Source of the DNA: Planctomycetota bacterium
GTDB lineage: Bacteria; Planctomycetota; GCA-002687715; CAIWVZ01
Length of the DNA stretch: 64,000 nucleotides
NCBI GenBank assembly: GCA_044222185.1
Contig: JBGANV010000001.1
Coordinates: 1,344,001-1,408,000 of the forward strand
Direction of reading: 5' to 3'
The position numbers and the translations under genes were made by a program. The notes beneath the pieces were generated by a model. That model ran no database searches and was not told the DNA's origin. It worked only from the letters and a program-made list of their open reading frames with translations. Shown in pieces: positions 12,883-64,000 of this stretch (positions are counted from its first letter, which is position 1; the number at the start of each line of letters is the position of its first letter).

Positions 12883-12955
12883 GCCCGCGTAGCCCAATGG
12901 CAGAGGCAGGGGACTTAAAATCCCTCCAGTGTGGGTTCGAGTCCCACCGCGGGCA
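12883..12955 (+). tRNA. tRNA-Leu (anticodon TAA), short variable loop, no encoded CCA
   Basis: Cloverleaf: acceptor GCCCGCG/CGCGGGC plus discriminator A; anticodon arm GGGGA-CTTAAAA-TCCCT; variable CCAGT; T arm GTGGG-TTCGAGT-CCCAC. Confidence 0.93.
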
Positions 12956-52459: not shown

Positions 52460-52909
52460 ATGGACATCACGACGCTCTTGAGTGCGGATCGCATCGTCAC
52501 GCTCAAAGACAACACCAAGGACGGCGCAATCAAGACGTTGGTGCGGACCCTCGCCAAATGCCCCGAGGTGACCAAGGAGAAGGAACTCGCCAAGGCGATC
52601 CACGACCGCGAGCGCATCCTCTCCACGGGCATCGGCCAGGGGATCGCGATCCCCCACGCCAAGATCGCGTCGGTCACGAAATTCGTGGCTGCGATCGGCA
52701 TCAGCAAGGTCGGGATTCCGTTCGACAGCCTGGATGACAAGCCAGCCCACCTGATCGTCATGATCGCGGGCCCTGAAGGGCAAAGCGAGGAGTACCTGCG
52801 GATCCTCTCCCGCTTCACGGCCGTCCTGAAGAACGAGCAGACCCGGTCACGCGTGATCGAGGCGAAGAAGTCCGAGCAGGTGATGGCGATCCTCCAGGAA
52901 TCGCGGTGA
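52460..52909 (+). CDS. PTS EIIA (PtsN / fructose-type) protein
   Basis: RE...STGIG.GIAIPHA phospho-His motif; GIPFDSLD.KP. Confidence 0.92.
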   Translation: MDITTLLSADRIVTLKDNTKDGAIKTLVRTLAKCPEVTKEKELAKAIHDRERILSTGIGQGIAIPHAKIASVTKFVAAIGISKVGIPFDSLDDKPAHLIVMIAGPEGQSEEYLRILSRFTAVLKNEQTRSRVIEAKKSEQVMAILQESR

Positions 52910-54585
52910 ACAAGGTCTTCGTTCTCGGTCTCGACGGGGCGACATTCGACCTCCTCGGACCGTGGATCGACTCCGGCGACCTGCCCAACCTGAAGAAACT
53001 CCAGGACGAAGGCGTTCGCGGACCGCTCGAGAGCGTCTATCCCCCGCTGACACCCTGCGCCTGGCCGTCCTTCTACATGGGCAAGAACCCGGGGAAGCAC
53101 GGCCTCTACGGCTACAAGGTGCGCCAGAAGGGCTCCTACGAGGAGATCCCCCTCAGCGCGTCGAGTCGACGCGGGCGATCGGTGTTCGAGCTCATCGGTG
53201 ACCAGGGCGGGAAGGTGGCGGTGCTTTCCGTCCCAATGACTTATCCGGCGACACCCGTCAACGGCGTGCTCTGCACCTGCATCTTCACGCCCAAGCTCGA
53301 CGACATCTATTCGACGGACTGCGCGTGGCCGCCCGAGTTCAAGGAGGACATGAAGAAGGTCATCGGCACCTTCCGCATCCACCCGGAGCGAGTCTACGCC
53401 AAGGGCACCATTCCCGAGCTCATCCAGGACTACAAGGAGACGCTCGAGCAGCGCATCCGGCTGTGCGAGTGGGTCCTCGAGCACAAACCGTGGGACTTCG
53501 CCATCACCGTGCTGAACGAGACCGATCACATCCAACATCAGGTCTGGCACGTGATCGACCCCAAGCATCACGACCACGACCCTGCCGAATTCGCGAAGTA
53601 CGGCAACGTGATCAAGGACTTCTACGTCCACGTGGATCAGCAGATCGGCCGCCTGATGGCGAAGCTGCCGGCGGGTGCCACGTTCGTCGTGATGTCCGAT
53701 CACGGACACGGACCGATCTACCGCTGGATCAACCTCAACAACCTCCTTGCGAAGCACGGGTTCATCCGGTTCAAGCGTGGCCCGGTCACCTGGCTGAAGC
53801 GCGCCATGTTCGCCATGGGCTTCACCCCGGGGAACATCTACCGCCTCAAGCTGAAACTCGATCGCCGAGGCGTGAAGAAGGGCGGCGCAGCCGAGGGCGG
53901 CGGTGGTGCGAGCCCACTCTTCCGCAAGGTGTTCCTCTCCGAGAATGACATCGACTGGCCCCGCACCCGCGCCTACGCGACGGGGCACATGGGTCAGATC
54001 AACGTGAACCTGAAGGGTCGCGAGCCATCAGGCGCGGTTTCCAAGTCGGAGATCCCACAGCTCCGGCGCGAGCTCGAGCAGCTCCTCGACGGGCTCCTCG
54101 ATCCACAGACCGGCGCGAAGATCATCGACCGCATGGTTCCGCGCGAGGAGCTGTTCTTCGGGGAGACCGTATCGCTCGCCTCCGATTTCTTCGTGAAGAC
54201 CATCGACCCGGGATACCAGGCTCTCGGCGGCGCATCGTTCATCTCGAATCGCGTGGTCGAGCGCTCCTACGGCAACACGGCGACTCACCGGATGAATGGG
54301 ATCCTGCTCATGAAGGGCCCCGGGATCCGCAAGGGCGCCCGCGTGGACGGCCTGAAGATCTACGAGCTTGCGGGCAACCTGCTCTATCGCATGGGCCTCC
54401 GCGTGCCCGACGATCTCGACTACCGCTTCGAGCCGGCCCTCTACGACGCCGGACTGCTCGAGTCCGAGCCCCCGCAACTCATGCCCGCGTCCGAGGTGGT
54501 GAAGGAAGATCGGCAGCACGAGCTCTCGCCGGAAGAGATCGCGCGGATGCGAGAGAACCTGAAGAAGCTCGGCTACGTGGATTGA
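52906..54585 (+). CDS. Alkaline-phosphatase-superfamily protein (type I phosphodiesterase / nucleotide pyrophosphatase-like)
   Basis: LGLDGAT; PPLTPCAW (Thr nucleophile); G.NPGKHG; TD..QH; MSDHG; NLKGREP.G; C-terminal L..LGY. Confidence 0.88.
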   Translation: MNKVFVLGLDGATFDLLGPWIDSGDLPNLKKLQDEGVRGPLESVYPPLTPCAWPSFYMGKNPGKHGLYGYKVRQKGSYEEIPLSASSRRGRSVFELIGDQGGKVAVLSVPMTYPATPVNGVLCTCIFTPKLDDIYSTDCAWPPEFKEDMKKVIGTFRIHPERVYAKGTIPELIQDYKETLEQRIRLCEWVLEHKPWDFAITVLNETDHIQHQVWHVIDPKHHDHDPAEFAKYGNVIKDFYVHVDQQIGRLMAKLPAGATFVVMSDHGHGPIYRWINLNNLLAKHGFIRFKRGPVTWLKRAMFAMGFTPGNIYRLKLKLDRRGVKKGGAAEGGGGASPLFRKVFLSENDIDWPRTRAYATGHMGQINVNLKGREPSGAVSKSEIPQLRRELEQLLDGLLDPQTGAKIIDRMVPREELFFGETVSLASDFFVKTIDPGYQALGGASFISNRVVERSYGNTATHRMNGILLMKGPGIRKGARVDGLKIYELAGNLLYRMGLRVPDDLDYRFEPALYDAGLLESEPPQLMPASEVVKEDRQHELSPEEIARMRENLKKLGYVD

Positions 54586-54607: not shown

Positions 54608-55912
54608 TCAGGCCTGGGACGCTGCGCCCGCGGCGGCAGCATCCGTCGATCCCTCGGTTGCAGTCGTGACCGGCAGCCCGACCACCGTTCGCACGCATTG
54701 GATCAGCCGTCCGACGGCGAACGGCTTGTGAAGGAAGGCGGCGACCGGAAATCCGCGAAGGCGAGCCGTGGCCTCGTGCTCCGTGAAGCCGCTCATCACC
54801 ACGACCCGCAGATCGGGCTTGAGCTGCGTCATCGCTCGAAGCGCCGCCGAGCCGTCGATGGCCGGCATCGTGAGGTCGAGCACGACCGCGCCGATCGAAT
54901 CCCGCTTCTCGCGCACGATTTCGATGGCATGGCGGCCGTTCACTGCAACCAGCGTTTCGAACCCGAACCGCTGGAGTGACTCCGCCACGACTTCCCGCAC
55001 GCACTCGTCGTCGTCGACGACGAGGATGGACCTCCCCGCCGGCGGCGGCGCCAGCTCATCGAGGATGTGCAGGGGACCCGTGGGAGTCGGTTCCGTGCGT
55101 TTCGCCACGGGCAGCAGCACGGTGAAACGGCTGCCGAGACCGGGCTCGCTTGCGACCTTCAGCCCGCCGCGGTGCGCGCGCACGAAGCCGAGCACTTTCG
55201 CGAGGCCCATGCCGCGCGCCGCCGATTTCGAGCTGAAGAACGGTTCGAAGATCCGACGCGCGGTGGCCTCGTCCATCCCGCATCCGGTGTCCTCGCATTG
55301 AAGGTAGACGTAGGCACCCTCGGCCAGGTCTCCGATGAACCCGGTCTGCTCGAGGTAGCGGTGATCTGCCTGCACGACGCCCGTTCGAAGGCAGACTCGC
55401 CCGCTTCCCGCCGTGACGGCCTCGATCGCGTTGACGAGAAGGTTCGAAACGACCTGCTCCAACTGGACCGAGTCGCCCGAGATCAGCGGGAGGTCCGTCG
55501 CGAACTCGCGGTACACCTCGATCCCGGAGGGAATCGCGGGCTCGAGCGCGTCGACGACGGCGCCCGTCAGCTTGTTCATCGAGATGGGGTCGACGCTGCT
55601 GATGCCGCGGCCGCTGAGCACGAGCAGCCGCCCCGTGAGTTCGGCCGCCTGCCGTGCCGCCTGTTCGATGCGCTGGAGCGGGAGCAGGAGCCTGGTCGGG
55701 ATCCCATCGTCGATGGCGGAGAGATTCGAGTGTCCGAGGATCGTCGTGAGGAAGTTGTTCAGATCGTGGGCGATGTCGCCGACGTCCGCCATGGCTTCGA
55801 GGTCCAAGGCTCGATTTCGGGGCAAACTCTGCATCGAGGTTCCGCCGTCCTCCGCGCAACTCCGCCAAAGGGCGCTGGCCGTCGAACGGTCCCGGCCCGT
55901 CTCGCCGCTCAC
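54608..55912 (-). CDS. Hybrid histidine kinase-receiver (CckA-like) without a recognisable sensor domain
   Basis: IAHDLNN H-box; NL.VNA.EA; DTGCGM; FEPFFSSK; GMGL; receiver VVDDD, LDLTMP, KPF. Start uncertain (alternative 55834). Confidence 0.88.
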   Translation of the reverse strand: MSGETGRDRSTASALWRSCAEDGGTSMQSLPRNRALDLEAMADVGDIAHDLNNFLTTILGHSNLSAIDDGIPTRLLLPLQRIEQAARQAAELTGRLLVLSGRGISSVDPISMNKLTGAVVDALEPAIPSGIEVYREFATDLPLISGDSVQLEQVVSNLLVNAIEAVTAGSGRVCLRTGVVQADHRYLEQTGFIGDLAEGAYVYLQCEDTGCGMDEATARRIFEPFFSSKSAARGMGLAKVLGFVRAHRGGLKVASEPGLGSRFTVLLPVAKRTEPTPTGPLHILDELAPPPAGRSILVVDDDECVREVVAESLQRFGFETLVAVNGRHAIEIVREKRDSIGAVVLDLTMPAIDGSAALRAMTQLKPDLRVVVMSGFTEHEATARLRGFPVAAFLHKPFAVGRLIQCVRTVVGLPVTTATEGSTDAAAAGAASQA

Positions 55913-56004: not shown

Positions 56005-57966
56005 TCAGTCCGCCCAACCCGCTGCGCCGCTGCGGCTTCGAGGGATCCTCACGCCAAAGATCCAAAGGATCGCGAGGCCACCCCCCAGGAACCATGACAG
56101 TCGCTGGGCAGCGCGAAGGGAGCAGAAATAACCCCAAATCGATCGGGGCGGGCGGAACCATCCCGGTGAGTCGGCACGACTTGGAGCCGGATCGAACAAG
56201 AGCGGGCGCAGTTCGATCCCCCCCGGGCGCGAGTCGGGCGTGCCGCCGGCCTTCTGGATCGACCCGATGACCCTGAGCCCCCCAGTCCGCCGAAGGTCGG
56301 CCTCGGTGATCCCCGCGAGAAAGGTGACGCAGGGGCTGCCGGCCGGGATGCCGTGGTCGTCGGAAAACGACACACGCCATACGCCGGCGGCGCGGCAGGC
56401 GCGATCGAGATCCACCAGGCGCCGGGCGTCGTCGCCGGACTGCGGTTGACGCTGGCGGTTGCCAACCTCGAACCCGTCGACGCCGGCAGCCAGGTAGGCC
56501 TCGACCGACGGGGTCGCGACCTGGCCGGCCGTGAGCCAGTGGTGCGCGACGATGACGAACGCGCCCATCCGCTTGGCGGCCCGCACAGCCGCCAGCGGCT
56601 CCGCTTCGAGGATGGTTGCGGCGACGGCGTCGCGCGTCCCGAGGACGAGGAGGTGAGGTGTGTCCCAGGTGCCCGCGTGGCGAGTGGTCATCGGGCCGCG
56701 GCCGCTCCACTCGCAGCCAGACACGCCAGCGGAAAGCCCGCCGTCGTCCGGCGCGAGGTGTGAGTGATGCGTCGTGACCGCCCAGGTCACCCCTCGCTGG
56801 AGTTGGCGGGATTCGAGTGCCGGTGCATCGATGTGCCCGTCGCTTGGATCGCCTCCATGCAGGTGCCAATCGACGAAGACACCCGTGAGGACTCTCGACG
56901 CGAACGCATCGGGAGGGGCGATCCCGCGCCAGAACGTGACCGCCCACAGGCTTCCCGCGACGACGATGGCGAGGGCCGCTCGGATGGCCGTTCCACGCTT
57001 GCTGCGGAACGCCGAAAGGACGAGCAGAAGGACGAGCCCGCATCCCCAACACAACGCCCAACGGAAGAAGCTTGCGAGGTCCGCCTCGGTGGCGCTCCAC
57101 AGCACCGGTCCCGAGATGGGCTCCGTGATGACGCGCAGGAGTTGGGGACGTGTGTCGAATCCCGGGACGATCTCGCCTGAAACCGGATCACGTCCCACCG
57201 GGAGCGCGATCCAAACCCGCGTGAGGATCAGCCACGCGCCGAGAAAGAACAGAGGGCGGCAGAATGGACGTCCCCTGTCGGGATCCAGTGCCCGGAGGAA
57301 TCCGGCCCACACGGGCCAGCGCGTGATCCAGGCGGTCAGCGTCGTTCCGAGGAGCCCCGTGGCCACGCCGGCGAGCACGTCCGACGGCCAGTGGGCTGCG
57401 AGGACGACTCGCTGAATGCACTGCAGCAGCGGGAACGCCCACAGGAGATTCCGCACTCGGCCGCGGCCGGCAGCCAACCAGAGTGCCGAGGCGATGGCGG
57501 TGGCGCTGCTCACGTGCCCTGAGGGAAACGACTCGAGGTCCGCGAGTCCGAGCGGCGACCAAAGGAACGATGCGTCGCCGACGTCGAGCATGGGTCGGGC
57601 ACGTCCGACGGTGGACTTCAATCCATGGGTGATCACGAGGACGACCCAGAACCCGATCACGATCACCAGCCCTGAGCGCTGCGCCGACGCCGCGCGCCGA
57701 CCCAACGCCATCAACATCACGCCGGCGAGAACGGCGACGGTCATGGACCAGCGCGGTGCAGGGTCGTCGAGCCACTCGAAGAACGGCCGCAGCGGCGACG
57801 CCTGCGGAAGGTTGAAACGTGTGACGACCCATCGGTCGGCGAACGACACCAGGGCGGCGAGGATCCCGAACAGGATCGTCCCGCCGATCAGGGTGCGGCG
57901 ATCCAGGGCGGCATCACGATCGTCGGCGACGCGCGAATCCGAGAATCCACCCCTCACGTTCCGCAC
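56005..57966 (-). CDS. PAP2 membrane phosphatase fused to a PHP-like metallophosphoesterase
   Basis: KSTVGRARP, SFPSGH, QRVVLAAHWPSDV (PAP2 C1-C3); DWHLH, THH, AHH, DGFEV.N, SDDH (PHP). Confidence 0.8.
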   Translation of the reverse strand: MRNVRGGFSDSRVADDRDAALDRRTLIGGTILFGILAALVSFADRWVVTRFNLPQASPLRPFFEWLDDPAPRWSMTVAVLAGVMLMALGRRAASAQRSGLVIVIGFWVVLVITHGLKSTVGRARPMLDVGDASFLWSPLGLADLESFPSGHVSSATAIASALWLAAGRGRVRNLLWAFPLLQCIQRVVLAAHWPSDVLAGVATGLLGTTLTAWITRWPVWAGFLRALDPDRGRPFCRPLFFLGAWLILTRVWIALPVGRDPVSGEIVPGFDTRPQLLRVITEPISGPVLWSATEADLASFFRWALCWGCGLVLLLVLSAFRSKRGTAIRAALAIVVAGSLWAVTFWRGIAPPDAFASRVLTGVFVDWHLHGGDPSDGHIDAPALESRQLQRGVTWAVTTHHSHLAPDDGGLSAGVSGCEWSGRGPMTTRHAGTWDTPHLLVLGTRDAVAATILEAEPLAAVRAAKRMGAFVIVAHHWLTAGQVATPSVEAYLAAGVDGFEVGNRQRQPQSGDDARRLVDLDRACRAAGVWRVSFSDDHGIPAGSPCVTFLAGITEADLRRTGGLRVIGSIQKAGGTPDSRPGGIELRPLLFDPAPSRADSPGWFRPPRSIWGYFCSLRAAQRLSWFLGGGLAILWIFGVRIPRSRSGAAGWAD

Positions 57967-58221: not shown

Positions 58222-59970
58222 ATGACGCCCAAAAGCACCGGACCAGCGGGCCGGACGCGTTTCATTTGCACCATCGGTCCCCCCACCCTGAACGTGGAGA
58301 GTCTGCGTGGGCTCGCCGACCACGGGATGAACATCGCGCGCGTGAACGGGTCTCACGGCTCGCTCGACGACGTTCGGTCCATGGTGACGTACCTCCGCGC
58401 GAATCTTCCCTCCGGGGTCGAGATCCTGCTGGACCTGCCTGGGAACAAGATCCGGACGGACAACATCGCCGAACCCATCGACCTGCGCGCCGGGGACACG
58501 TTCGTCATTCCGCCGAACCGTGTGACCTATCGTCCGCTCTACACCCGGGTGCACGCCGGTGACCGGATTTCCGCGGCGGACGGTGCGATCCAGCTGGACG
58601 TCGTCGAGGTGAAGGGTGAGGACATCGTCACCCGCGTCCTGGTTGGAGGGTTGCTGCGCAACCGCAAGGGCCTGAACATCCGCGGCATACACGATGCCAT
58701 CCCGTTCGACTTCGAACGGGACATCTCTCTCATCAACATCGCGATCGAATTGCAGGTCGACTATCTGGGCCTGTCCTTCGTGCGCGCCCCCGAGCACGTG
58801 CGCCGCATCAAGTCGCAGCTCGTCGGGACGCGAATCCGCGTCGTCGCGAAGGTCGAGACGGCGGAGGCCGTCGACCTGCTCCCGAGGATCCTCGCGGAGG
58901 CCGACATCATCATGATCGACCGCGGCGACCTCGAGGCCGAGATCGGGCGCGAGAACATCCCGCTCACGCAAAAGCGGGTCATCACGAAGGCTCGCGAAGC
59001 TCACGTGCCGGTGATCGTCGCGTCGCAGTTCATGATGTCGATGCTCGACAAGCCGATCCCCTACATGGCCGAGGTGTCGGACGTCGCCAACGCGGTGCTC
59101 GATCGCGCCGACATCCTCATGCTGTCGGAGGAGACGGCGATCGGGAAGTACCCGAATGACGCCATCGGCACCATGCGCCAGATCGCCCGCACCGTCGAGA
59201 AGCAGCTCGACCATCAGTACGGGGCCATCATCCTCGCCGCCGGCCCATCCACGGGTTTTGGCTCACTGACGACCAACAAGCACAAGTGCATGCTCGACGT
59301 CGGCGGGACGACGATCATCAGCCATCAGCTCGAGAACCTGCGCGCCTGCGGCATCCGGGATGAACACGTGACCGTCGTCACCGGACACAACCATGCGCAG
59401 ATCGAGCACTATCTGCGGGGCGAGGCGTTCTCCGGATCGTTCGTCTACAACCCGTGGTACGCGACGACGAACATGCTCGTGTCGCTCTGGCTCGCCCGGC
59501 CCGACTCCAACATCGTCGTCGTGTACGGCGACATCATCTTCGATCCGACGATCCTCACGGACATCCTTGCGACGCCCGGCGACGCCGTCGCGGCGATCGA
59601 CGGCGACTCGGACATGACGCCCGAGGACGAGAAGGTGATCGTGAAGGACGGCCGCGTCGTCTCCTTGAGCAAGGAGTTGGATCCGGCGCACTGCCACGGT
59701 GAATTCCTCGGCCTCGCGCGCTTCTCGCGTCGCGCGGCTCGCAAGCTCCAGACCGAGCTCGATGCCATCGTCAAGCAGGGTCACATGATGGCCTTCCTCA
59801 CGCTCGGCCTCGAACGGCTGAACGAGAAAGGCACCCCGCTGATCCCCTGCTGGACCGAAGGCCGCCCGTGGGCAGACAACGACGGGCTGGCGGACCTCGA
59901 ACACTCGCGTGAGAAGGTCTACCCGAAGATCCTCGCCCGCCGCAAAACCATGGAGCCCGCCAAGCGATGA
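58222..59970 (+). CDS. Fusion: divergent pyruvate-kinase A/B domains + LicC/PntC-like NTP transferase
   Basis: TIGP, RVNGSHG, DLPGNKIR, SFVR, KVET, DRGDL, MLSEETA.GKYP; then AIILAAG, HKCML, YATTNMLVSL, YGDIIF, GEFLGL, WADND...DL. Confidence 0.88.
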   Translation: MTPKSTGPAGRTRFICTIGPPTLNVESLRGLADHGMNIARVNGSHGSLDDVRSMVTYLRANLPSGVEILLDLPGNKIRTDNIAEPIDLRAGDTFVIPPNRVTYRPLYTRVHAGDRISAADGAIQLDVVEVKGEDIVTRVLVGGLLRNRKGLNIRGIHDAIPFDFERDISLINIAIELQVDYLGLSFVRAPEHVRRIKSQLVGTRIRVVAKVETAEAVDLLPRILAEADIIMIDRGDLEAEIGRENIPLTQKRVITKAREAHVPVIVASQFMMSMLDKPIPYMAEVSDVANAVLDRADILMLSEETAIGKYPNDAIGTMRQIARTVEKQLDHQYGAIILAAGPSTGFGSLTTNKHKCMLDVGGTTIISHQLENLRACGIRDEHVTVVTGHNHAQIEHYLRGEAFSGSFVYNPWYATTNMLVSLWLARPDSNIVVVYGDIIFDPTILTDILATPGDAVAAIDGDSDMTPEDEKVIVKDGRVVSLSKELDPAHCHGEFLGLARFSRRAARKLQTELDAIVKQGHMMAFLTLGLERLNEKGTPLIPCWTEGRPWADNDGLADLEHSREKVYPKILARRKTMEPAKR

Positions 59971-61139
59971 GCATCGTCCCTTCGACGGATGCCGATCTCG
60001 TCAATCGAATCCTCACGGGTGCGGCGCGCGAGAAGGCCATCGAGCGCTCGCACCGACTCCCCCGCCTCGATCTCGACCGCAACCAGGTGCTCGACCTGGA
60101 GAAGATCGCGAACGGCACGTTCTCACCGCTCGTCGGCTTCATGAACCAGGCCGACACGCGGGCGGTGGTCGACGACGGCCGCATGGCGAACGGCAACCCG
60201 TGGACGATTCCCGTGAACCTTCAGGTCACCGAGGAGCGCGCCCGCTCCCTGCGCGCCGCCACCGAGGTGCTCTTGTGGAACGCCGAGGAGAACCGCCCTG
60301 CCGGCCTGATGGAGATTTCCGAGATCTTCCCCCTCGACCTCGAGCGGGACGCCGCAAGGGTCTACGGGACTACCGAGCGGGCCCATCCCGGCGTGAACCG
60401 GTTCCTCGACGGAGGCGGGTTCGCGCTCGCGGGGCCCGTCTGGCTCATCGACCATTCCGTGTCGCTGATCCCGGCCCGCTTCGACCTCGATCCGCGCGTC
60501 GTCCGTGCCGAGTTCCGCAAACGGGGTTGGAAGACGGTGACCGGGTTCCAGACCCGCAACCTCGGACACCGCGCGCACGAACGGCTTCAGAAGATCGCCC
60601 TCGAGATGACGGACGGGCTGCTCATCCATCCGCTGATCGGGTGGAAGAAGAAGGGCGACATGCTGCCCGAGGTGATCCTCGAGGGGTACGAGGTGCTCGT
60701 CCGCAACTACTACCCCGAACGGCACGTCGTGCTCGCGGCGCTCACCACCGCCATGCGCTATGCCGGCCCTCGCGAGGCCGTGTTCCACGCCCTGATCCGG
60801 CGCAACTTCGGCTGCACACACTTCATCATCGGTCGCGACCACGCTGGCGTCGGCGGGTACTACGAGAAATACGCAGCTCACCGCATGTTCGACCGCTACA
60901 CGCCGCAAGAGCTGGGAATCACGCCGCTGCGGCTCCACGGTCCGTGCTGGTGCAACAAGTGCCAGGAAATCGTCACCGAGAAGACGTGTCCCCACGGCGA
61001 CGGCAGCTGGGTGGACATCTCCGGGACGGAAGTGCGCGCGATGATCGGCCGCGGCGAGCGGCCGCCCGAGTTCTTCATGCGCCCCGAGATCGCGGAATTC
61101 CTCGTCCGCCGGGCCCGCGAAGGTGCCGTGTTCTTCTGA
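59967..61139 (+). CDS. sat: Sulfate adenylyltransferase (ATP sulfurylase, Sat type)
   Basis: FSPL.GFM; FQTRN..HRAHE; YAGPREAVFHALIRRNFGCTHFIIGRDHAGVG; CNKC...CPH; ISGT.VR. ATGA overlap with the upstream gene. Confidence 0.96.
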   Translation: MSIVPSTDADLVNRILTGAAREKAIERSHRLPRLDLDRNQVLDLEKIANGTFSPLVGFMNQADTRAVVDDGRMANGNPWTIPVNLQVTEERARSLRAATEVLLWNAEENRPAGLMEISEIFPLDLERDAARVYGTTERAHPGVNRFLDGGGFALAGPVWLIDHSVSLIPARFDLDPRVVRAEFRKRGWKTVTGFQTRNLGHRAHERLQKIALEMTDGLLIHPLIGWKKKGDMLPEVILEGYEVLVRNYYPERHVVLAALTTAMRYAGPREAVFHALIRRNFGCTHFIIGRDHAGVGGYYEKYAAHRMFDRYTPQELGITPLRLHGPCWCNKCQEIVTEKTCPHGDGSWVDISGTEVRAMIGRGERPPEFFMRPEIAEFLVRRAREGAVFF

Positions 61140-61177
61140 GCCGATAGACGAAACAAACCCGTACTGCGGAGTCAGCC

Positions 61178-62344
61178 ATGGTGTTCGGACTGTTCAAGAA
61201 GAAAGACGGGAACGATCGCGCCAAGGCCGCACGGCCGAACGTGATCTTCGTCCTCATCGACATGGTGCGCGCCGACCGTCGCAAGGGTCGCAAGATCTTC
61301 GACGAGCTGGGGCGGCGAAGCATCTGTTTCCCCAAGATGTTCACCCACGCTCCGTACACGATCGCGTCCGTGCACGCGTTCATGTCGGGGATGTACGGCA
61401 GCCTCACGGGCGTCGACGCGTACTACAAGGCGCCGAAGTTCGACAAGGACGGCTGCAAGACGCTCGCGCAGCACTTCAAGGAGAACGGCTACTACTGCCT
61501 GGCCGACTTCATGAACCCGGGCATCGCGCCGCACCAGGGTTTCGACGAGGTCCGCGTGCACGACGAGTTCAAGGACGACCTGCTCGCGCGTCACAAAGCC
61601 ATGATCACGGAAGTGCGTGGAAAGAAGCCCCACTTCCTCTACCTGCACTTCTCCTACGTGCACCGCGAGATCGTCACGAACGTCATCAAGAAGTTCAAAG
61701 ACGACGACCCGAACTACTTCGGCGAGGACAACAGGACGAAGAACGACGAACGCTACAACTCGTACCTCGACATGGCCGAGGAGTACATGACGGGCCTGCT
61801 CGCCCACATGGATTCGCTCAAGGTCGACGAGGACACGATCGTCCTGTTCATGACGGACCATGGTTGCGGCATCGGTGAACGGACCGGCGAGAAGGCCTAC
61901 GGCATCTTCACCTACGACTACACGATCAACGTGTGGGCGTACCTGATGCACAAGGGGCGGCTGCCCGGCGGGAAGGAGATCCCGCAGATGGTCCGGACCA
62001 TCGACATCGCGCCGACGCTCCTCGACCTCTGCAACATCGACCCTGTCGAAGGCGAGAAGGAAATGCAGGGCCGGAGTCTCGTCCCCGTCATCGAGGGCGC
62101 GGATCGCGACGATCGCGAGATCTACGTGGAGACCGCAGGCCTCGACGGTCCCACGCCATCGCCCTACGAGGCCAACATCTTCTGCGTGCGGAACCGCCAG
62201 TGGAAGATGATCTACAACTCCACGACCAAGACGCGCGAGCTGTACGACCTCGTCGCCGACCCGCAGGAGTCGAAGAACATCGCGGGCACGAAACCGGAGG
62301 TCGAGACTCCCCTCTTCGAGAAGATCCGCCGCCGCTACCTGTGA
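61178..62344 (+). CDS. Cytoplasmic sulfatase-like hydrolase/transferase (Thr at the nucleophile position)
   Basis: PNVIFVLID.VRAD; APYTIAS..AFMSG.Y (no CxPxR); TDHG; DIAPTLLDL; ELYDL.ADP.E..N; GGAG RBS. Confidence 0.88.
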   Translation: MVFGLFKKKDGNDRAKAARPNVIFVLIDMVRADRRKGRKIFDELGRRSICFPKMFTHAPYTIASVHAFMSGMYGSLTGVDAYYKAPKFDKDGCKTLAQHFKENGYYCLADFMNPGIAPHQGFDEVRVHDEFKDDLLARHKAMITEVRGKKPHFLYLHFSYVHREIVTNVIKKFKDDDPNYFGEDNRTKNDERYNSYLDMAEEYMTGLLAHMDSLKVDEDTIVLFMTDHGCGIGERTGEKAYGIFTYDYTINVWAYLMHKGRLPGGKEIPQMVRTIDIAPTLLDLCNIDPVEGEKEMQGRSLVPVIEGADRDDREIYVETAGLDGPTPSPYEANIFCVRNRQWKMIYNSTTKTRELYDLVADPQESKNIAGTKPEVETPLFEKIRRRYL

Positions 62345-62389: not shown

Positions 62390-64000
62390 TCAGAACCCGG
62401 CCCAGCTGTAGTTGCCCGCCGGGAGCGGGGTGAAGAGGATCGAGTTCAACGATCCTGCGAGCGACGCGCACTGGCCGCCACCCGTGTTGTTGTAGAAGTC
62501 GTACCACATCCGCGTGGTCGTCGCGGGAGTCCCCGAGCCGCCCGCCGAGAAGGTGGTGACGCCGCTGTCAGTCGCGCCCGTGCCCCGGCTGATGCCGAGG
62601 AACTGTCGCGTCCCCGTGCCTGCCGCCGCGGTGTTTGCCGGAATCCCGAGCAACCCGTCCAGCCTCACCGTGTTCGCCGACGTGTCGAACTCGATTGCGA
62701 ACGTGTTCGCGACCGTGGTGCCGAAGTAGGGCACGGCGTTGTAGGCCACGCGCACCTTGTTCGCGGCGGGAGCCGAGACGCTGACGGTCGCCGCACCGGT
62801 GACGTTGAGGTCCGTCCAGAAACCGACGAACGGCAGACCGCTCGTGGCCTCCGCGACCGTCGGCGAAAAGTCCGTGCTCGAGCCGCCGAAGGTGATGCGG
62901 CCGTTGCTGCCGACGTTCAAGACCGAGTAGCTCACGCCGAAGAACGTGACGTTCGACGAGCAGGTGGCGCCACCCAGGCTGATCGCGGCAGAGACGTCGT
63001 CCCCGACCGGTCCCGCCGCGAACGCCCCCCCGGCGACCGTCGTGATCTGAACTCCCTGGCTGAACGCGATGCCGTCCGCGTTCGACGGATCACCCACGAA
63101 CATCTGCAGCGAGGCCGTCAACGGAACCGTGGCGGTGAACGGAAGCGAGAGGTTCCCGCTCCATGGCAACGGAATCGACGCGCCGGCGCCCGTGCTGATG
63201 AAGACCATCCCGGGGAGGGGCACGTTCAGGATCTGGCCGCCGGGAGTGACGTACGTCCCCGCATTGCGCGGAACGAGGCTGCCCAGGTTCAGCGCCATGT
63301 CGAACGGGAAACCGATCGCCGCGGGAACGCTGCTCAGGTGAACGGTCCCGCTCGTCCCGATGCACTTCGTCGTCACGGCAGGTGAGCTGCTCGTGCCCTG
63401 GACGCCGTCGGCGTCCAGGTTCGACCGCGGCGAGTTCACCTGGTACTGGGGCACGCTCGGGGCACAGCCCGTCGACGTGAGGAGGCTCGCACGGAAGCCG
63501 CCGGGTCCGAACAGCGCCTGCATGCGGGACTTTTGTCCGAGGGTGAACATGTTCATGCACGGGTCGTCCGTGTAGTCCATGTAGTTCTCGTATTGGACCG
63601 AGTTGCCGCACTGCGTGAGGGTCGACGGGTACGGGCATCCGAACGTGGAGGCGTTGCTGTCCGGGGTATCCGCAACGAGGTCGTCGACCCCGCACGTCGA
63701 GCTGTCACCCCAGAGGTGGATGAGATTCAGCCAGTGGCCGACCTCGTGCGTCGCACTGCGCCCGGAGTTGTACGCCGAGAGGTTCGTCGGATACCCGCGA
63801 CCGACCGACTGCCACGTGACGACGACGCCGTCCGTCGCCGCGGCGCCGCCAGGGAACTGCGCGTAGCCGAGCAGACCACCTCCGAGCGGAGCGATCCAGA
63901 TGTTCAGGTACTGCCCCGCCGGCCACGCGTCGTGACCACCGGTCGCCGCGTGCTTCACGTTGTTGTTGGTGTTGAACGACGTCGTCGCGGTCTGGGTGCG
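62390..64000 (-). CDS. Secreted M43 (pappalysin/ulilysin) zinc metalloprotease, 5' end outside the window
   Basis: YLNIW; LLGYAQFP; DGVV; HEVGHWLNLIHLWGD; D.V.DTP; NYMDY..D.CM.MFT.GQ..RM; frame open to the window edge. Confidence 0.92.
   Translation of the reverse strand, partial: RTQTATTSFNTNNNVKHAATGGHDAWPAGQYLNIWIAPLGGGLLGYAQFPGGAAATDGVVVTWQSVGRGYPTNLSAYNSGRSATHEVGHWLNLIHLWGDSSTCGVDDLVADTPDSNASTFGCPYPSTLTQCGNSVQYENYMDYTDDPCMNMFTLGQKSRMQALFGPGGFRASLLTSTGCAPSVPQYQVNSPRSNLDADGVQGTSSSPAVTTKCIGTSGTVHLSSVPAAIGFPFDMALNLGSLVPRNAGTYVTPGGQILNVPLPGMVFISTGAGASIPLPWSGNLSLPFTATVPLTASLQMFVGDPSNADGIAFSQGVQITTVAGGAFAAGPVGDDVSAAISLGGATCSSNVTFFGVSYSVLNVGSNGRITFGGSSTDFSPTVAEATSGLPFVGFWTDLNVTGAATVSVSAPAANKVRVAYNAVPYFGTTVANTFAIEFDTSANTVRLDGLLGIPANTAAAGTGTRQFLGISRGTGATDSGVTTFSAGGSGTPATTTRMWYDFYNNTGGGQCASLAGSLNSILFTPLPAGNYSWAGF

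What the first reader, a model, noticed from the sequence alone, without database searches (positions are those of the whole stretch)
58222..62344. Pyruvate-kinase-like/cytidylyltransferase fusion + ATP sulfurylase + Thr-type sulfatase-fold enzyme: candidate undescribed activation-and-transfer pathway
Seen: three co-oriented genes (ATGA overlap, then a 38-bp gap). Gene 1 has PK A/B domains, but the PK regulatory C domain is replaced by a nucleotidyltransferase resembling LicC/PntC (YATTNMLVSL, YGDIIF, EKV, GEFLGL). Established: kinase, then cytidylyltransferase, then transferase is the logic of LicA/LicC/LicD phosphocholine decoration. PntC domains are often fused to PEP mutase in phosphonate-glycan loci. 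Sat makes APS. No APS kinase, APS reductase or sulfotransferase lies in the window. Inference: the operon builds an NDP-activated small acid for cell-surface decoration. Either the PK barrel phosphorylates a non-pyruvate (possibly sulfur-bearing) hydroxy/oxo acid, or it uses APS as a nucleotide analogue to move sulfuryl onto enol-pyruvate. The sulfatase-fold protein would act as transferase or editing hydrolase.
Basis: partly seen in the sequence, partly recalled or inferred. Interest (0 to 1): 0.88.

Follow-up and report, generated by a model that had tools for sequence, protein, structure and literature searches.

The report
Pyruvate-kinase fusion with orphan sulfate activator
A spare pyruvate-kinase copy fused to a nucleotide-attaching enzyme always travels with a sulfate-activating enzyme that has no known downstream user, and together they probably build a new activated head group for the cell envelope.

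Summary
Three co-oriented genes encode a pyruvate-kinase A/B barrel fused to a PntC/LicC-like nucleotidyltransferase (PK-NT), a bona fide ATP sulfurylase (Sat), and a sulfatase-fold protein with Thr in place of the formylglycine Cys.

PK-NT is a paralogue. All 23 genomes of the order also have a canonical pyruvate kinase. PK-NT and Sat are adjacent in 20 of 20 loci of that order. They are also adjacent in 4 of 4 distant loci (Omnitrophota-type) whose fusion lacks the B domain.

The slot after Sat holds either this Thr-sulfatase-fold gene (with a phosphodiesterase partner) or a CDP-alcohol phosphotransferase, never both. TagF-like transferases sit there in 2 of the 4 distant loci.

Eleven of 23 genomes show no APS kinase, and the seven best of these no strong APS reductase or CysD hit. 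Five that were tested have no sulfotransferase, so Sat is an orphan.

Best reading (about 0.45): a kinase, then nucleotidyl activation, then transfer pathway for an envelope head group that consumes APS directly. How APS enters is unresolved. Seven literature searches found no description of the fusion or of such a linkage. Interest is high.

The parts
58222..59970 (+). PK-NT fusion (582 aa). A pyruvate-kinase A+B barrel (residues about 11-315) is joined to a PntC/LicC-like nucleotidyltransferase domain (about 335-582). There is no PK C domain.
   Evidence: Pfam and NCBIfam. PDB alignments. Family alignment A1. AF2 plus Foldseek of the NT domain.
59967..61139 (+). ATP sulfurylase (Sat, 390 aa). 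Its start overlaps the PK-NT stop.
   Evidence: PF01747 plus PUA_2, and NF003166 at 476 bits above the cut-off of 387. Best PDB matches are 8a8d and 1v47. Catalytic motifs are invariant in 14 of 14 linked Sats. It is the only PF01747 match in the genome.
61178..62344 (+). Sulfatase-fold protein (388 aa) with a Thr nucleophile and no signal peptide or transmembrane segment. It is the candidate transferase, or an editing enzyme.
   Evidence: PF00884. Thr replaces the Cys and C-x-P-x-R is absent. The Thr is invariant. A profile hits only S1 sulfatases and phosphonate monoester hydrolases in the PDB. It occupies the operon slot that a CDP-alcohol phosphotransferase holds in sister families.
52906..54585 (+). 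Alkaline-phosphatase-superfamily phosphodiesterase / nucleotide-pyrophosphatase-like protein (559 aa). It co-varies with the sulfatase-fold gene.
   Evidence: PF01663 at 4e-39. Weak PhnA match with Thr aligned to the nucleophile. Present in the same 5 of 23 genomes as the sulfatase-fold gene. A homologue is present in 4 of 4 distant loci.
56005..57966 (-). Divergently transcribed membrane protein (653 aa): an N-terminal PAP2 lipid-phosphate phosphatase, further transmembrane helices, and a C-terminal PHP-type metal phosphoesterase.
   Evidence: PF01569. Seen beside PK-NT in 16 of 20 loci. PHP motifs are invariant. AF2 gave pLDDT 80.6, and the top Foldseek hits are RNase AM and other PHP phosphoesterases. 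A hydropathy and positive-inside estimate places both domains on the outer face (heuristic).
52460..52909 (+). PTS EIIA(Ntr/Fru)-type protein. It is a conserved neighbour, its stop overlaps the PDE start, and its role in the module is unknown.
   Evidence: PF00359 at 3.2e-33. Present in 15 of 20 loci.

Best explanation
These genes form a cytoplasmic activation-and-transfer module for a small phospho head group destined for the cell envelope (a lipid or a glycan).

Step 1. Sat makes APS from ATP and sulfate. Family membership is shown; the activity is inferred.

Step 2. The PK-like barrel keeps all the phosphoryl-transfer and metal residues of pyruvate kinase but carries three family-specific acidic substitutions. 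It phosphorylates, or otherwise derivatises, a small substrate X using PEP or a nucleotide donor. This step is inferred.

Step 3. The fused PntC/LicC-like domain joins X-phosphate to a nucleotide, giving NDP-X. The fold and most catalytic motifs are shown; the reaction is inferred.

Step 4. A third enzyme moves phospho-X onto an acceptor. In this genome it is the Thr-type sulfatase-fold protein together with the phosphodiesterase-like partner. In sister families it is a CDP-alcohol phosphotransferase. In two of the four distant (Omnitrophota-type) loci it is a TagF-like transferase. This step is inferred from in-situ gene displacement.

Step 5. The divergent PAP2-PHP membrane protein trims phosphate esters at the outer face. 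This step is inferred.

APS is used inside this module, not through PAPS or sulfite. My single best guess for its use is as the sulfuryl donor that puts sulfate on the head group. I give about 0.6 to the general pathway and about 0.25-0.3 to this sub-claim.
For: - PK-NT is a paralogue, not the glycolytic enzyme. The PK C domain is found in 23 of 23 genomes of the order. The own genome has a 516-aa canonical PK and a third PK.
- PK-NT orthologues occur in 23 of 23 genomes of the order. PK-NT and Sat are adjacent in 20 of 20 fetched loci.
- Distant fusions lacking the B domain (38-41% identity) have Sat adjacent in 4 of 4 loci and a PDE homologue in 4 of 4.
- The third gene is interchangeable. 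A CDP-alcohol phosphotransferase with a perfect D-x2-D-G-x2-A-R-x8-G-x3-D-x3-D motif follows Sat in 6 loci of family f2. It is found in 17 of 23 genomes, and in none of the 5 that carry PDE plus the sulfatase-fold gene.
- TagF-like genes abut Sat and PK-NT in L066 and L067, inside glycan clusters (also 29).
- The NT domain is PntC-like by fold, with TM 0.84-0.87.
- Sat is an orphan. APS kinase is found in only 12 of 23 genomes. In seven genomes of at least 90% completeness neither APS kinase nor a strong PF01507 hit is found. No Sulfotransfer_1 or _3 is found in the 5 tested. The own genome has no sulfite reductase and no CysH. There is no real APS kinase in the 4 distant genomes.
- The PAP2-PHP partner is seen in 16 of 20 loci.
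Against: - The NT domain lacks Arg15 and the second Gly of GXG(T/S)R, which forms the pyrophosphate site. R15A cut Tde-PntC activity to under 10% (passages of PMC6697681). Relatives without the B domain also lack the terminal Lys.
- No enzyme in the minimal gene set is a recognised sulfotransferase, so sulfate incorporation needs new chemistry. X itself is unknown.
- Relatives without the B domain have lost the lid and the His of the nucleotide site. A nucleotide-dependent reaction in the barrel therefore cannot be general.
- One PK-NT locus (L062, 60% identity) has no Sat within 8 kb, and its 7.3-Mb genome has no PF01747 match. The completeness of that genome is unknown.
- The complementary distribution rests on few evolutionary events among related genomes. 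One genome (G359, 76% complete) shows neither partner.
- The sulfatase-fold protein clusters with true S1 sulfatases, not with LtaS/EptA-type transferases.
Confidence: 0.45

Rival explanations
1. The same pathway, but sulfate is only catalytic. APS is the nucleotidyl donor of the Arg-less NT domain: APS + X-phosphate gives ADP-X + sulfate. The leaving group is sulfate instead of pyrophosphate. The third enzyme then uses ADP-X.
For: - The part of the NT signature that is remodelled is the pyrophosphate (leaving-group) site. The alpha-phosphate Lys (in this protein), the substrate Lys (EDEK) and the acidic metal motifs are all kept.
- Stand-alone relatives keep the Arg.
- This explains an orphan Sat without any sulfotransferase, kinase or reductase.
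- The genes are translationally coupled.
Against: - There is no thermodynamic gain over using ATP or CTP directly.
- CDP-alcohol phosphotransferases and TagF-like enzymes are known (recalled) to use cytidine donors.
- One relative without the B domain (P0099) keeps the Arg.
- The L062 genome has PK-NT but no Sat match.
Confidence: 0.2
2. PK-NT is a PEP-dependent kinase for a nucleotide held by the NT-like domain, for example phosphorylating the 3'-OH of APS. Together with Sat it would form a non-canonical PAPS-type synthase.
For: - Sat is almost universally paired with an APS kinase (recalled), and 11 of 23 genomes here lack one.
- Forms without the B domain would not need the ADP site.
- The canonical NT residues are eroded.
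- A 3'-phospho cytidine donor made by a CysC-like kinase is a recalled precedent, from the Campylobacter O-methyl phosphoramidate pathway.
Against: - No sulfotransferase families are found in 5 of 5 tested genomes.
- The acidic metal motifs of an active NT domain are strictly conserved.
- The PHP domain is predicted to lie outside the cytoplasm, so it is unlikely to be a pAp phosphatase.
- This reading does not explain the CDP-alcohol phosphotransferase and TagF-like partners.
Confidence: 0.1
3. A sulfate-catalysed adenylate / pyrophosphate cycle. Sat runs ATP + sulfate to APS + PPi. The NT domain runs APS + Pi to ADP + sulfate. PK runs ADP + PEP to ATP. The net reaction is PEP + Pi to pyruvate + PPi.
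For: - It uses exactly the invariant trio of activities and needs no unknown substrate.
- It explains the orphan Sat and the altered leaving-group site.
- The PK catalytic residues are intact, and TIGR01064 scores 313 against a cut-off of 306.
Against: - It does not explain the tight, interchangeable partnership with CDP-alcohol phosphotransferase, TagF-like and AP-superfamily genes, nor the PAP2-PHP protein.
- Forms without the B domain lack the ADP site.
- Whether these organisms depend on PPi was not examined.
Confidence: 0.07
4. An ordinary pyruvate-kinase isozyme whose allosteric C domain was swapped for a nucleotide-sensing, catalytically dead NT fold. The sat neighbourhood would then reflect co-regulation only.
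For: - The PK motifs are largely intact and the protein passes the pyruvate-kinase equivalog cut-off.
- The NT signature is degenerate.
- The NT domain sits where the regulatory domain normally is.
Against: - The Mg and substrate motifs of the NT domain are invariant across two phyla.
- Relatives without the B domain cannot be normal kinases.
- Adjacency to Sat survives gene-order rearrangement across phyla.
- Every genome of the order already has a canonical PK.
Confidence: 0.08

Closest known systems
Lic / Kennedy-type head-group pathways (choline kinase LicA, then CTP:phosphocholine cytidylyltransferase LicC, then LicD or choline phosphotransferase)
   Same: The same three-step logic. The NT domain has the LicC fold: 1jyk at E 2.1e-7 by sequence and TM 0.77 by fold. 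A CDP-alcohol phosphotransferase partner occurs in sister genomes, and its PDB hits include CHPT1 and CEPT1. A PAP2 lipid-phosphate phosphatase lies nearby.
   Different: The kinase is a pyruvate-kinase barrel, not a choline-kinase fold. An ATP sulfurylase is an obligate neighbour. The NT pyrophosphate-site Arg is missing. The transferase in this genome has a sulfatase fold.
PntC and PEP-mutase-NT fusions of phosphonate tailoring (PMC6697681; passages read)
   Same: PntC is the best structural match of the NT domain (6pd2, TM 0.87). The architecture is a PF12804 domain fused to a barrel of the PEP/pyruvate superfamily. The language-model neighbours of PK-NT are such fusions (score 0.79, a lead only). 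The products decorate cell surfaces.
   Different: The barrel is a true PF00224 pyruvate kinase, not PF13714. No PEP mutase scored above the cut-off in 5 of 5 genomes tested. Arg15 is absent.
IPCT/DIPPS (inositol-1-phosphate cytidylyltransferase with a CDP-inositol phosphotransferase)
   Same: The NT domain and the displaced partner both give their best named hits to it: NF041135 at 2.4e-12, and 4mnd at 5.7e-6. An NT works with a membrane CDP-alcohol phosphotransferase, and a phosphatase follows.
   Different: All scores are far below the family cut-offs. The genes are separate. There is no evidence for inositol. PK and Sat are extra components.
Sat-CysC (PAPS synthase) and assimilatory sulfate activation
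   Same: A canonical homomeric Sat with all motifs and a Zn-Cys cluster, as in 1v47 and 8a8d.
   Different: In many of these genomes no APS kinase, APS/PAPS reductase, sulfite reductase or sulfotransferase accompanies it.
Canonical pyruvate kinase
   Same: A full PF00224 match. The R/N/S, K-x-E and R-G-D motifs are conserved, and the K+-independent Lys type is present. The residue roles are recalled.
   Different: No C domain. MVARGDLG reads MIDRGDLE, SGE reads SEE, and T-Q reads S-Q, invariantly in the family. Some members have no B domain.
Type I (S1) sulfatases, phosphonate monoester hydrolases, and Thr-nucleophile relatives such as LtaS and EptA (recalled)
   Same: PF00884 fold with metal ligands D and D-H kept. 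A profile hits S1 sulfatases at up to 2.3e-35.
   Different: The formylglycine motif is absent and Thr is the nucleophile. The protein is soluble and has no signal peptide. It sits in a biosynthetic operon.

Membership tests
Pyruvate kinase (PF00224 / TIGR01064) | Full A+B barrel match | tested here: met
   PF00224 covers profile positions 3-328 of 328 at E 5e-73. TIGR01064 scores 313.3 against a cut-off of 306.4, but NF004491 scores 316 against a cut-off of 432.
Pyruvate kinase (PF00224 / TIGR01064) | C-terminal regulatory/tetramerisation domain (PF02887) | tested here: not met
   There is no PF02887 hit in the fusion. The canonical paralogue carries that domain.
Pyruvate kinase (PF00224 / TIGR01064) | Catalytic Lys, metal Glu/Asp and Arg/Asn/Ser of the phosphate site (roles recalled) | tested here: met
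   The alignments to 5wrp and 2e28, and alignment A1, show these residues conserved. A-to-D, G-to-E, G-to-E and T-to-S changes lie next to them and are family-invariant.
Pyruvate kinase (PF00224 / TIGR01064) | PEP + ADP to pyruvate + ATP activity | not testable with these tools
   An enzyme assay is needed.
LicC/PntC-type cytidylyltransferase (PF12804) | Fold and family match | tested here: met
   PF12804 scores 46.5 bits against a cut-off of 27. Foldseek: PntC at TM 0.84-0.87, LicC at 0.77.
LicC/PntC-type cytidylyltransferase (PF12804) | GXG(T/S)RX4-8PK signature, with Arg15 at the pyrophosphate site | tested here: not met
   The sequence reads G-P-S-T-G where G-x-G-T-R is expected. The Arg is missing in 15 of 16 aligned fusion-family sequences. 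Its role is taken from PMC6697681.
LicC/PntC-type cytidylyltransferase (PF12804) | Terminal Lys (alpha-phosphate) and Lys153-type substrate Lys | tested here: met
   Both are present in this protein, the second within the EDEK motif. The terminal Lys is not conserved in relatives without the B domain, which have Q, A or V there.
ATP sulfurylase (Sat) | Family score above the curated cut-off, with catalytic motifs | tested here: met
   NF003166 scores 476.4 against 387, and TIGR00339 scores 353.8 against 323. The T-R-N..H-x-A-H-E (Q nearly invariant) and G-R-D-H-A-G motifs are invariant in 14 of 14 sequences.
Assimilatory sulfate pathway | A downstream APS kinase or APS/PAPS reductase, plus sulfite reductase | tested here: not met
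   Own genome: the only PF01507 hit is a CysD beside CysN/C, and there is no PF01077 hit. Order: APS kinase is found in 12 of 23 genomes.
Type I sulfatase (S1) | C/S-x-P-x-R formylglycine motif | tested here: not met
   The motif position reads T-I-A-S-V. The Thr is invariant in 5 of 5 sequences.
Type I sulfatase (S1) | Fold and metal ligands | tested here: met
   PF00884 scores 64.7 bits against a cut-off of 25. D28 and D227 are invariant, and H228 is conserved in 4 of 5 sequences (Asn in the L066 relative). The best PDB profile hit is 3ed4 at 2.3e-35.
Lic/Kennedy head-group pathway | Choline-kinase-fold kinase and a LicD-type or CDP-alcohol phosphotransferase in the same genome | tested here: inconclusive
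   The kinase has a PK fold. The CDP-alcohol phosphotransferase orthologue is not found in the own genome but is found in 17 of 23 genomes of the order. LicA and LicD were not searched.

The most novel reading that the evidence does not exclude
Activated sulfate (APS) from an otherwise orphan ATP sulfurylase is consumed directly by a pyruvate-kinase / PntC-like fusion enzyme. It would act either as the sulfuryl donor for a new sulfated phospho head group, or as the nucleotidyl donor with sulfate as the leaving group. Either way this would be a PAPS-independent and reduction-independent use of APS in envelope biosynthesis, shared by Planctomycetota and ultra-small Omnitrophota.
Probability: 0.3. 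Interest if true: 0.9.

Novelty: new variant of a known kind. Interest (0 to 1): 0.72.

Why it matters
- A glycolytic enzyme fold would have been recruited as the first step of a head-group pathway. About 100 protein clusters are currently labelled 'pyruvate kinase' or 'choline kinase'. The partner is labelled 'sulfatase'.
- sat is widely used as a marker of sulfate assimilation or reduction in metagenome surveys. Here it occurs in genomes with no recognised way to use APS, so such counts may be misread.
- If APS is used directly, that would be a third fate of activated sulfate, beside PAPS and sulfite.
- The module may define an unknown anionic component of the envelopes of an entire planctomycete order, and of tiny-genome Omnitrophota. 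Both groups are poorly understood.

Tried and rejected
- Complex prediction of PK-NT with Sat (collected) gave no verdict (score 0.00). I draw nothing from it.
- A search for longer fusions (over 1020 aa) with the NT region found none. This is weak evidence.
- The search for related loci with the full-length alignment was flooded by canonical pyruvate kinases. Only 10 of the 80 loci kept were fusions.
- Stand-alone NT homologues (L028-L034) have no sat within their roughly 3.7 kb, and they keep the canonical Arg.
- The surroundings of the CDP-alcohol phosphotransferase in family f3 were uninformative: a peptidase, a permease, transketolase and RNase.
- The 586-aa protein beside PK-NT in L064 and L065 is not TagF-like by BLASTP.
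- A phosphonate pathway was rejected, because no PEP mutase scored above the cut-off in 5 of 5 genomes.
- A cytoplasmic pAp-phosphatase role for the PHP domain was considered, because the fold hits include 2yb1. I set it aside because the topology estimate puts the domain outside the cytoplasm (heuristic).
- No riboswitch lies upstream. The only Rfam hit in the window is a tRNA.
- Literature: seven searches found no paper on a PK-NT fusion or on a sat-linked CDP-alcohol pathway. For some searches I saw only the listings. A further search located PMC6697681, of which I read passages. Supplementary files were not consulted.

Full report
**1. The observation**

PK-NT is 58222-59970. Sat is 59967-61139, so the two overlap as ATGA. 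The sulfatase-fold gene is 61178-62344, after a 38-bp gap.

PK-NT carries a complete pyruvate-kinase barrel (PF00224, E 5e-73) and a PF12804 nucleotidyltransferase domain. It has no PK C domain. It just passes the pyruvate-kinase equivalog cut-off, at 313 bits against 306.

Sat is a canonical ATP sulfurylase. It scores 476 bits against a cut-off of 387. Its best solved relatives are 8a8d and 1v47.

The third protein is a PF00884 sulfatase-fold protein. The C-x-P-x-R formylglycine motif reads T-I-A-S-V. This Thr is invariant in 5 of 5 relatives.

The NT domain is LicC/PntC-like:
- By sequence, it matches 1jyk at 2.1e-7 and 6pd1 over nearly its whole length.
- By fold, the AF2 model has pLDDT 94.7, and all top Foldseek hits are PntC at TM 0.84-0.87.

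**2. PK-NT is a paralogue**

The genome has a 516-aa canonical PK with a C domain, and a third PK on another contig. A PK C domain is found in 23 of 23 genomes of the order.

**3. Distribution and linkage**

Of the 120 best clusters in the protein search, about 100 have the same PF00224 + PF12804 architecture. Where named, they come from Planctomycetota and Omnitrophota.

In a sample of 401 genomes of the phylum, strong orthologues of the NT domain occur in all 23 genomes of the window's order.

In 20 of 20 loci fetched from 20 of those genomes, sat lies directly after PK-NT. Other neighbours in those loci:
- A divergent PAP2 gene is seen in 16 of 20.
- EIIA is seen in 15 of 20.

Distant fusions (38-41% identity) that lack the B domain entirely also have sat adjacent, now upstream, in 4 of 4 loci. 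A homologue of the window's phosphodiesterase-like gene is present in 4 of 4.

There is one exception. L062 (60% identity) has a Na+/H+ exchanger after PK-NT, and its genome has no PF01747 match.

**4. The third enzyme is interchangeable**

In family f2, the gene immediately after sat is a CDP-alcohol phosphotransferase with a perfect catalytic motif. Its nearest solved relatives are IPCT/DIPPS and choline/ethanolamine phosphotransferases.

Across the 23 genomes of the order:
- Its orthologue is found in 17.
- The sulfatase-fold gene and the phosphodiesterase-like gene are both found in 5 others.
- No genome has both sets.
- One genome, 76% complete, shows neither.

In two of the four distant loci, TagF-like (CDP-glycerol-type) transferases sit between or beside sat and PK-NT. 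They lie within clusters of glycosyltransferases, an ABC exporter, methyltransferases and a carbamoyltransferase.

Three unrelated enzyme families therefore occupy the partner position, and all move a phospho-group from an activated donor. This is the strongest argument that the NT domain makes an NDP-linked donor. It also argues that the sulfatase-fold protein here acts as a transferase or processing enzyme, rather than as a degradative sulfatase. These genomes are related, so the pattern reflects only a few evolutionary events.

**5. Sat is an orphan**

The own genome has one Sat. It also has a separate CysD-CysN/C set. It has no second PF01507 gene, so no CysH, and no sulfite reductase.

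In the order, APS kinase is found in only 12 of 23 genomes. Seven genomes of 90-97% completeness have neither APS kinase nor a strong PF01507 hit. Five of these were searched for Sulfotransfer_1 and Sulfotransfer_3, and none has either.

The four distant genomes are 0.8-1.5 Mb, and their completeness is unknown. None has a real APS kinase, and one has a CysH-like gene.

Sat as such is common in the phylum, at 188 of 401 genomes. What is special is not its presence but its context. APS must have a user, and PK-NT is the only universal partner.

**6. Anatomy of the fusion**

The PK part keeps the Arg/Asn/Ser, Lys-x-Glu and Arg-Gly-Asp motifs. It has family-invariant changes next to them: A to D, G to E, S-G-E to S-E-E, and T to S. 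The residue roles are recalled, not taken from a call.

The NT part keeps the Y-G-D, E-D-E-K, G-E-F and W-x-D-N-D motifs. It has G-P-S-T-G in place of G-x-G-T-R. Stand-alone relatives in the phylum keep the Arg.

According to the passages I read in PMC6697681, those first five residues form the pyrophosphate site. In Tde-PntC, the R15A, K25A and K153A variants each have under 10% of wild-type activity.

The leaving-group site is thus remodelled while the rest of the catalytic apparatus is conserved. This is the basis of the rival reading in which APS, not an NTP, is the nucleotidyl donor.

**7. The divergent partner**

The 653-aa membrane protein combines a PAP2 domain with a C-terminal domain that has no sequence hits. 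That domain does have invariant PHP-type His/Asp/Glu motifs. Its model matches PHP phosphoesterases: RNase AM at 9e-8, followed by 3e38, 3o0f, 2anu and 2yb1. A hydropathy and positive-inside estimate puts both domains on the outer face of the membrane (heuristic). This fits a product that reaches the envelope.

**8. Reading**

The best-supported explanation is a kinase, then nucleotidyl activation, then transfer pathway for an envelope head group that consumes APS directly. I give about 0.6 to the general pathway.

How APS is used is the open step. In order of my preference:
- as the sulfuryl donor to the head group;
- as the nucleotidyl donor, with sulfate as the leaving group;
- as the substrate of a PEP-dependent kinase;
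- as part of a pyrophosphate-forming cycle.

The forms without the B domain argue against any mechanism that needs the classical ADP site. The lack of any recognised sulfotransferase argues against a simple sulfation scheme.

**9. Novelty**

Seven literature searches found nothing on this architecture or linkage. The closest described systems are the Lic/Kennedy pathways, PntC and PEP-mutase-NT fusions, and IPCT/DIPPS. I file the finding as a new variant of a known kind of pathway. It carries a substantial chance (about 0.3) of new APS chemistry.

Noticed in passing
window 56005-57006 (-), C-terminal third of the PAP2 gene: An unannotated PHP-type phosphoesterase domain is fused to a PAP2 lipid-phosphate phosphatase through extra transmembrane helices. 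It has no Pfam or PDB sequence hit, but the fold match and the metal motifs are clear.
   Followed up: yes
window 54608-55912 (-): A hybrid histidine kinase / response regulator gene sits between the PDE and PAP2 genes. No counterpart was detected at this position in the 20 related loci, so it looks like a local insertion.
   Followed up: partly
own genome, contig C7 about 109000-112000 (locus L003 1381-3267, -): A third pyruvate-kinase paralogue (628 aa) has a long N-terminal extension. Its PF00224 match is split in two stretches.
   Followed up: no
own genome (whole): No sulfite reductase (PF01077) and no CysH-type reductase were found, although CysD-CysN/C and Sat are present. The organism apparently cannot reduce sulfate for cysteine synthesis. 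The genome is 93.8% complete.
   Followed up: partly
window 62390-64000 (-): A large secreted-looking M43 (pappalysin-type) metallopeptidase has a long Gly/Thr/Ser-rich C-terminal region and runs off the window end.
   Followed up: no
L066 1418-3316 and 3332-5407; L067 12317-14122: In the distant loci the sulfatase-fold and PDE homologues are longer (601-691 aa against 388 and 559 aa in the window). The PDE homologues have hydrophobic N-terminal extensions; the extra N-terminal ~195 aa of the sulfatase-fold homologue was not inspected. This is the architecture of LtaS/EptA-type transferases (recalled).
   Followed up: no
L062 9704-12097: The one PK-NT gene without sat is followed by a Na+/H+ exchanger, a Cache sensor fragment and a cNMP-binding protein.
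   Followed up: partly
window 12883-12955 (+): A tRNA gene. This was the only Rfam hit in the window.
   Followed up: no
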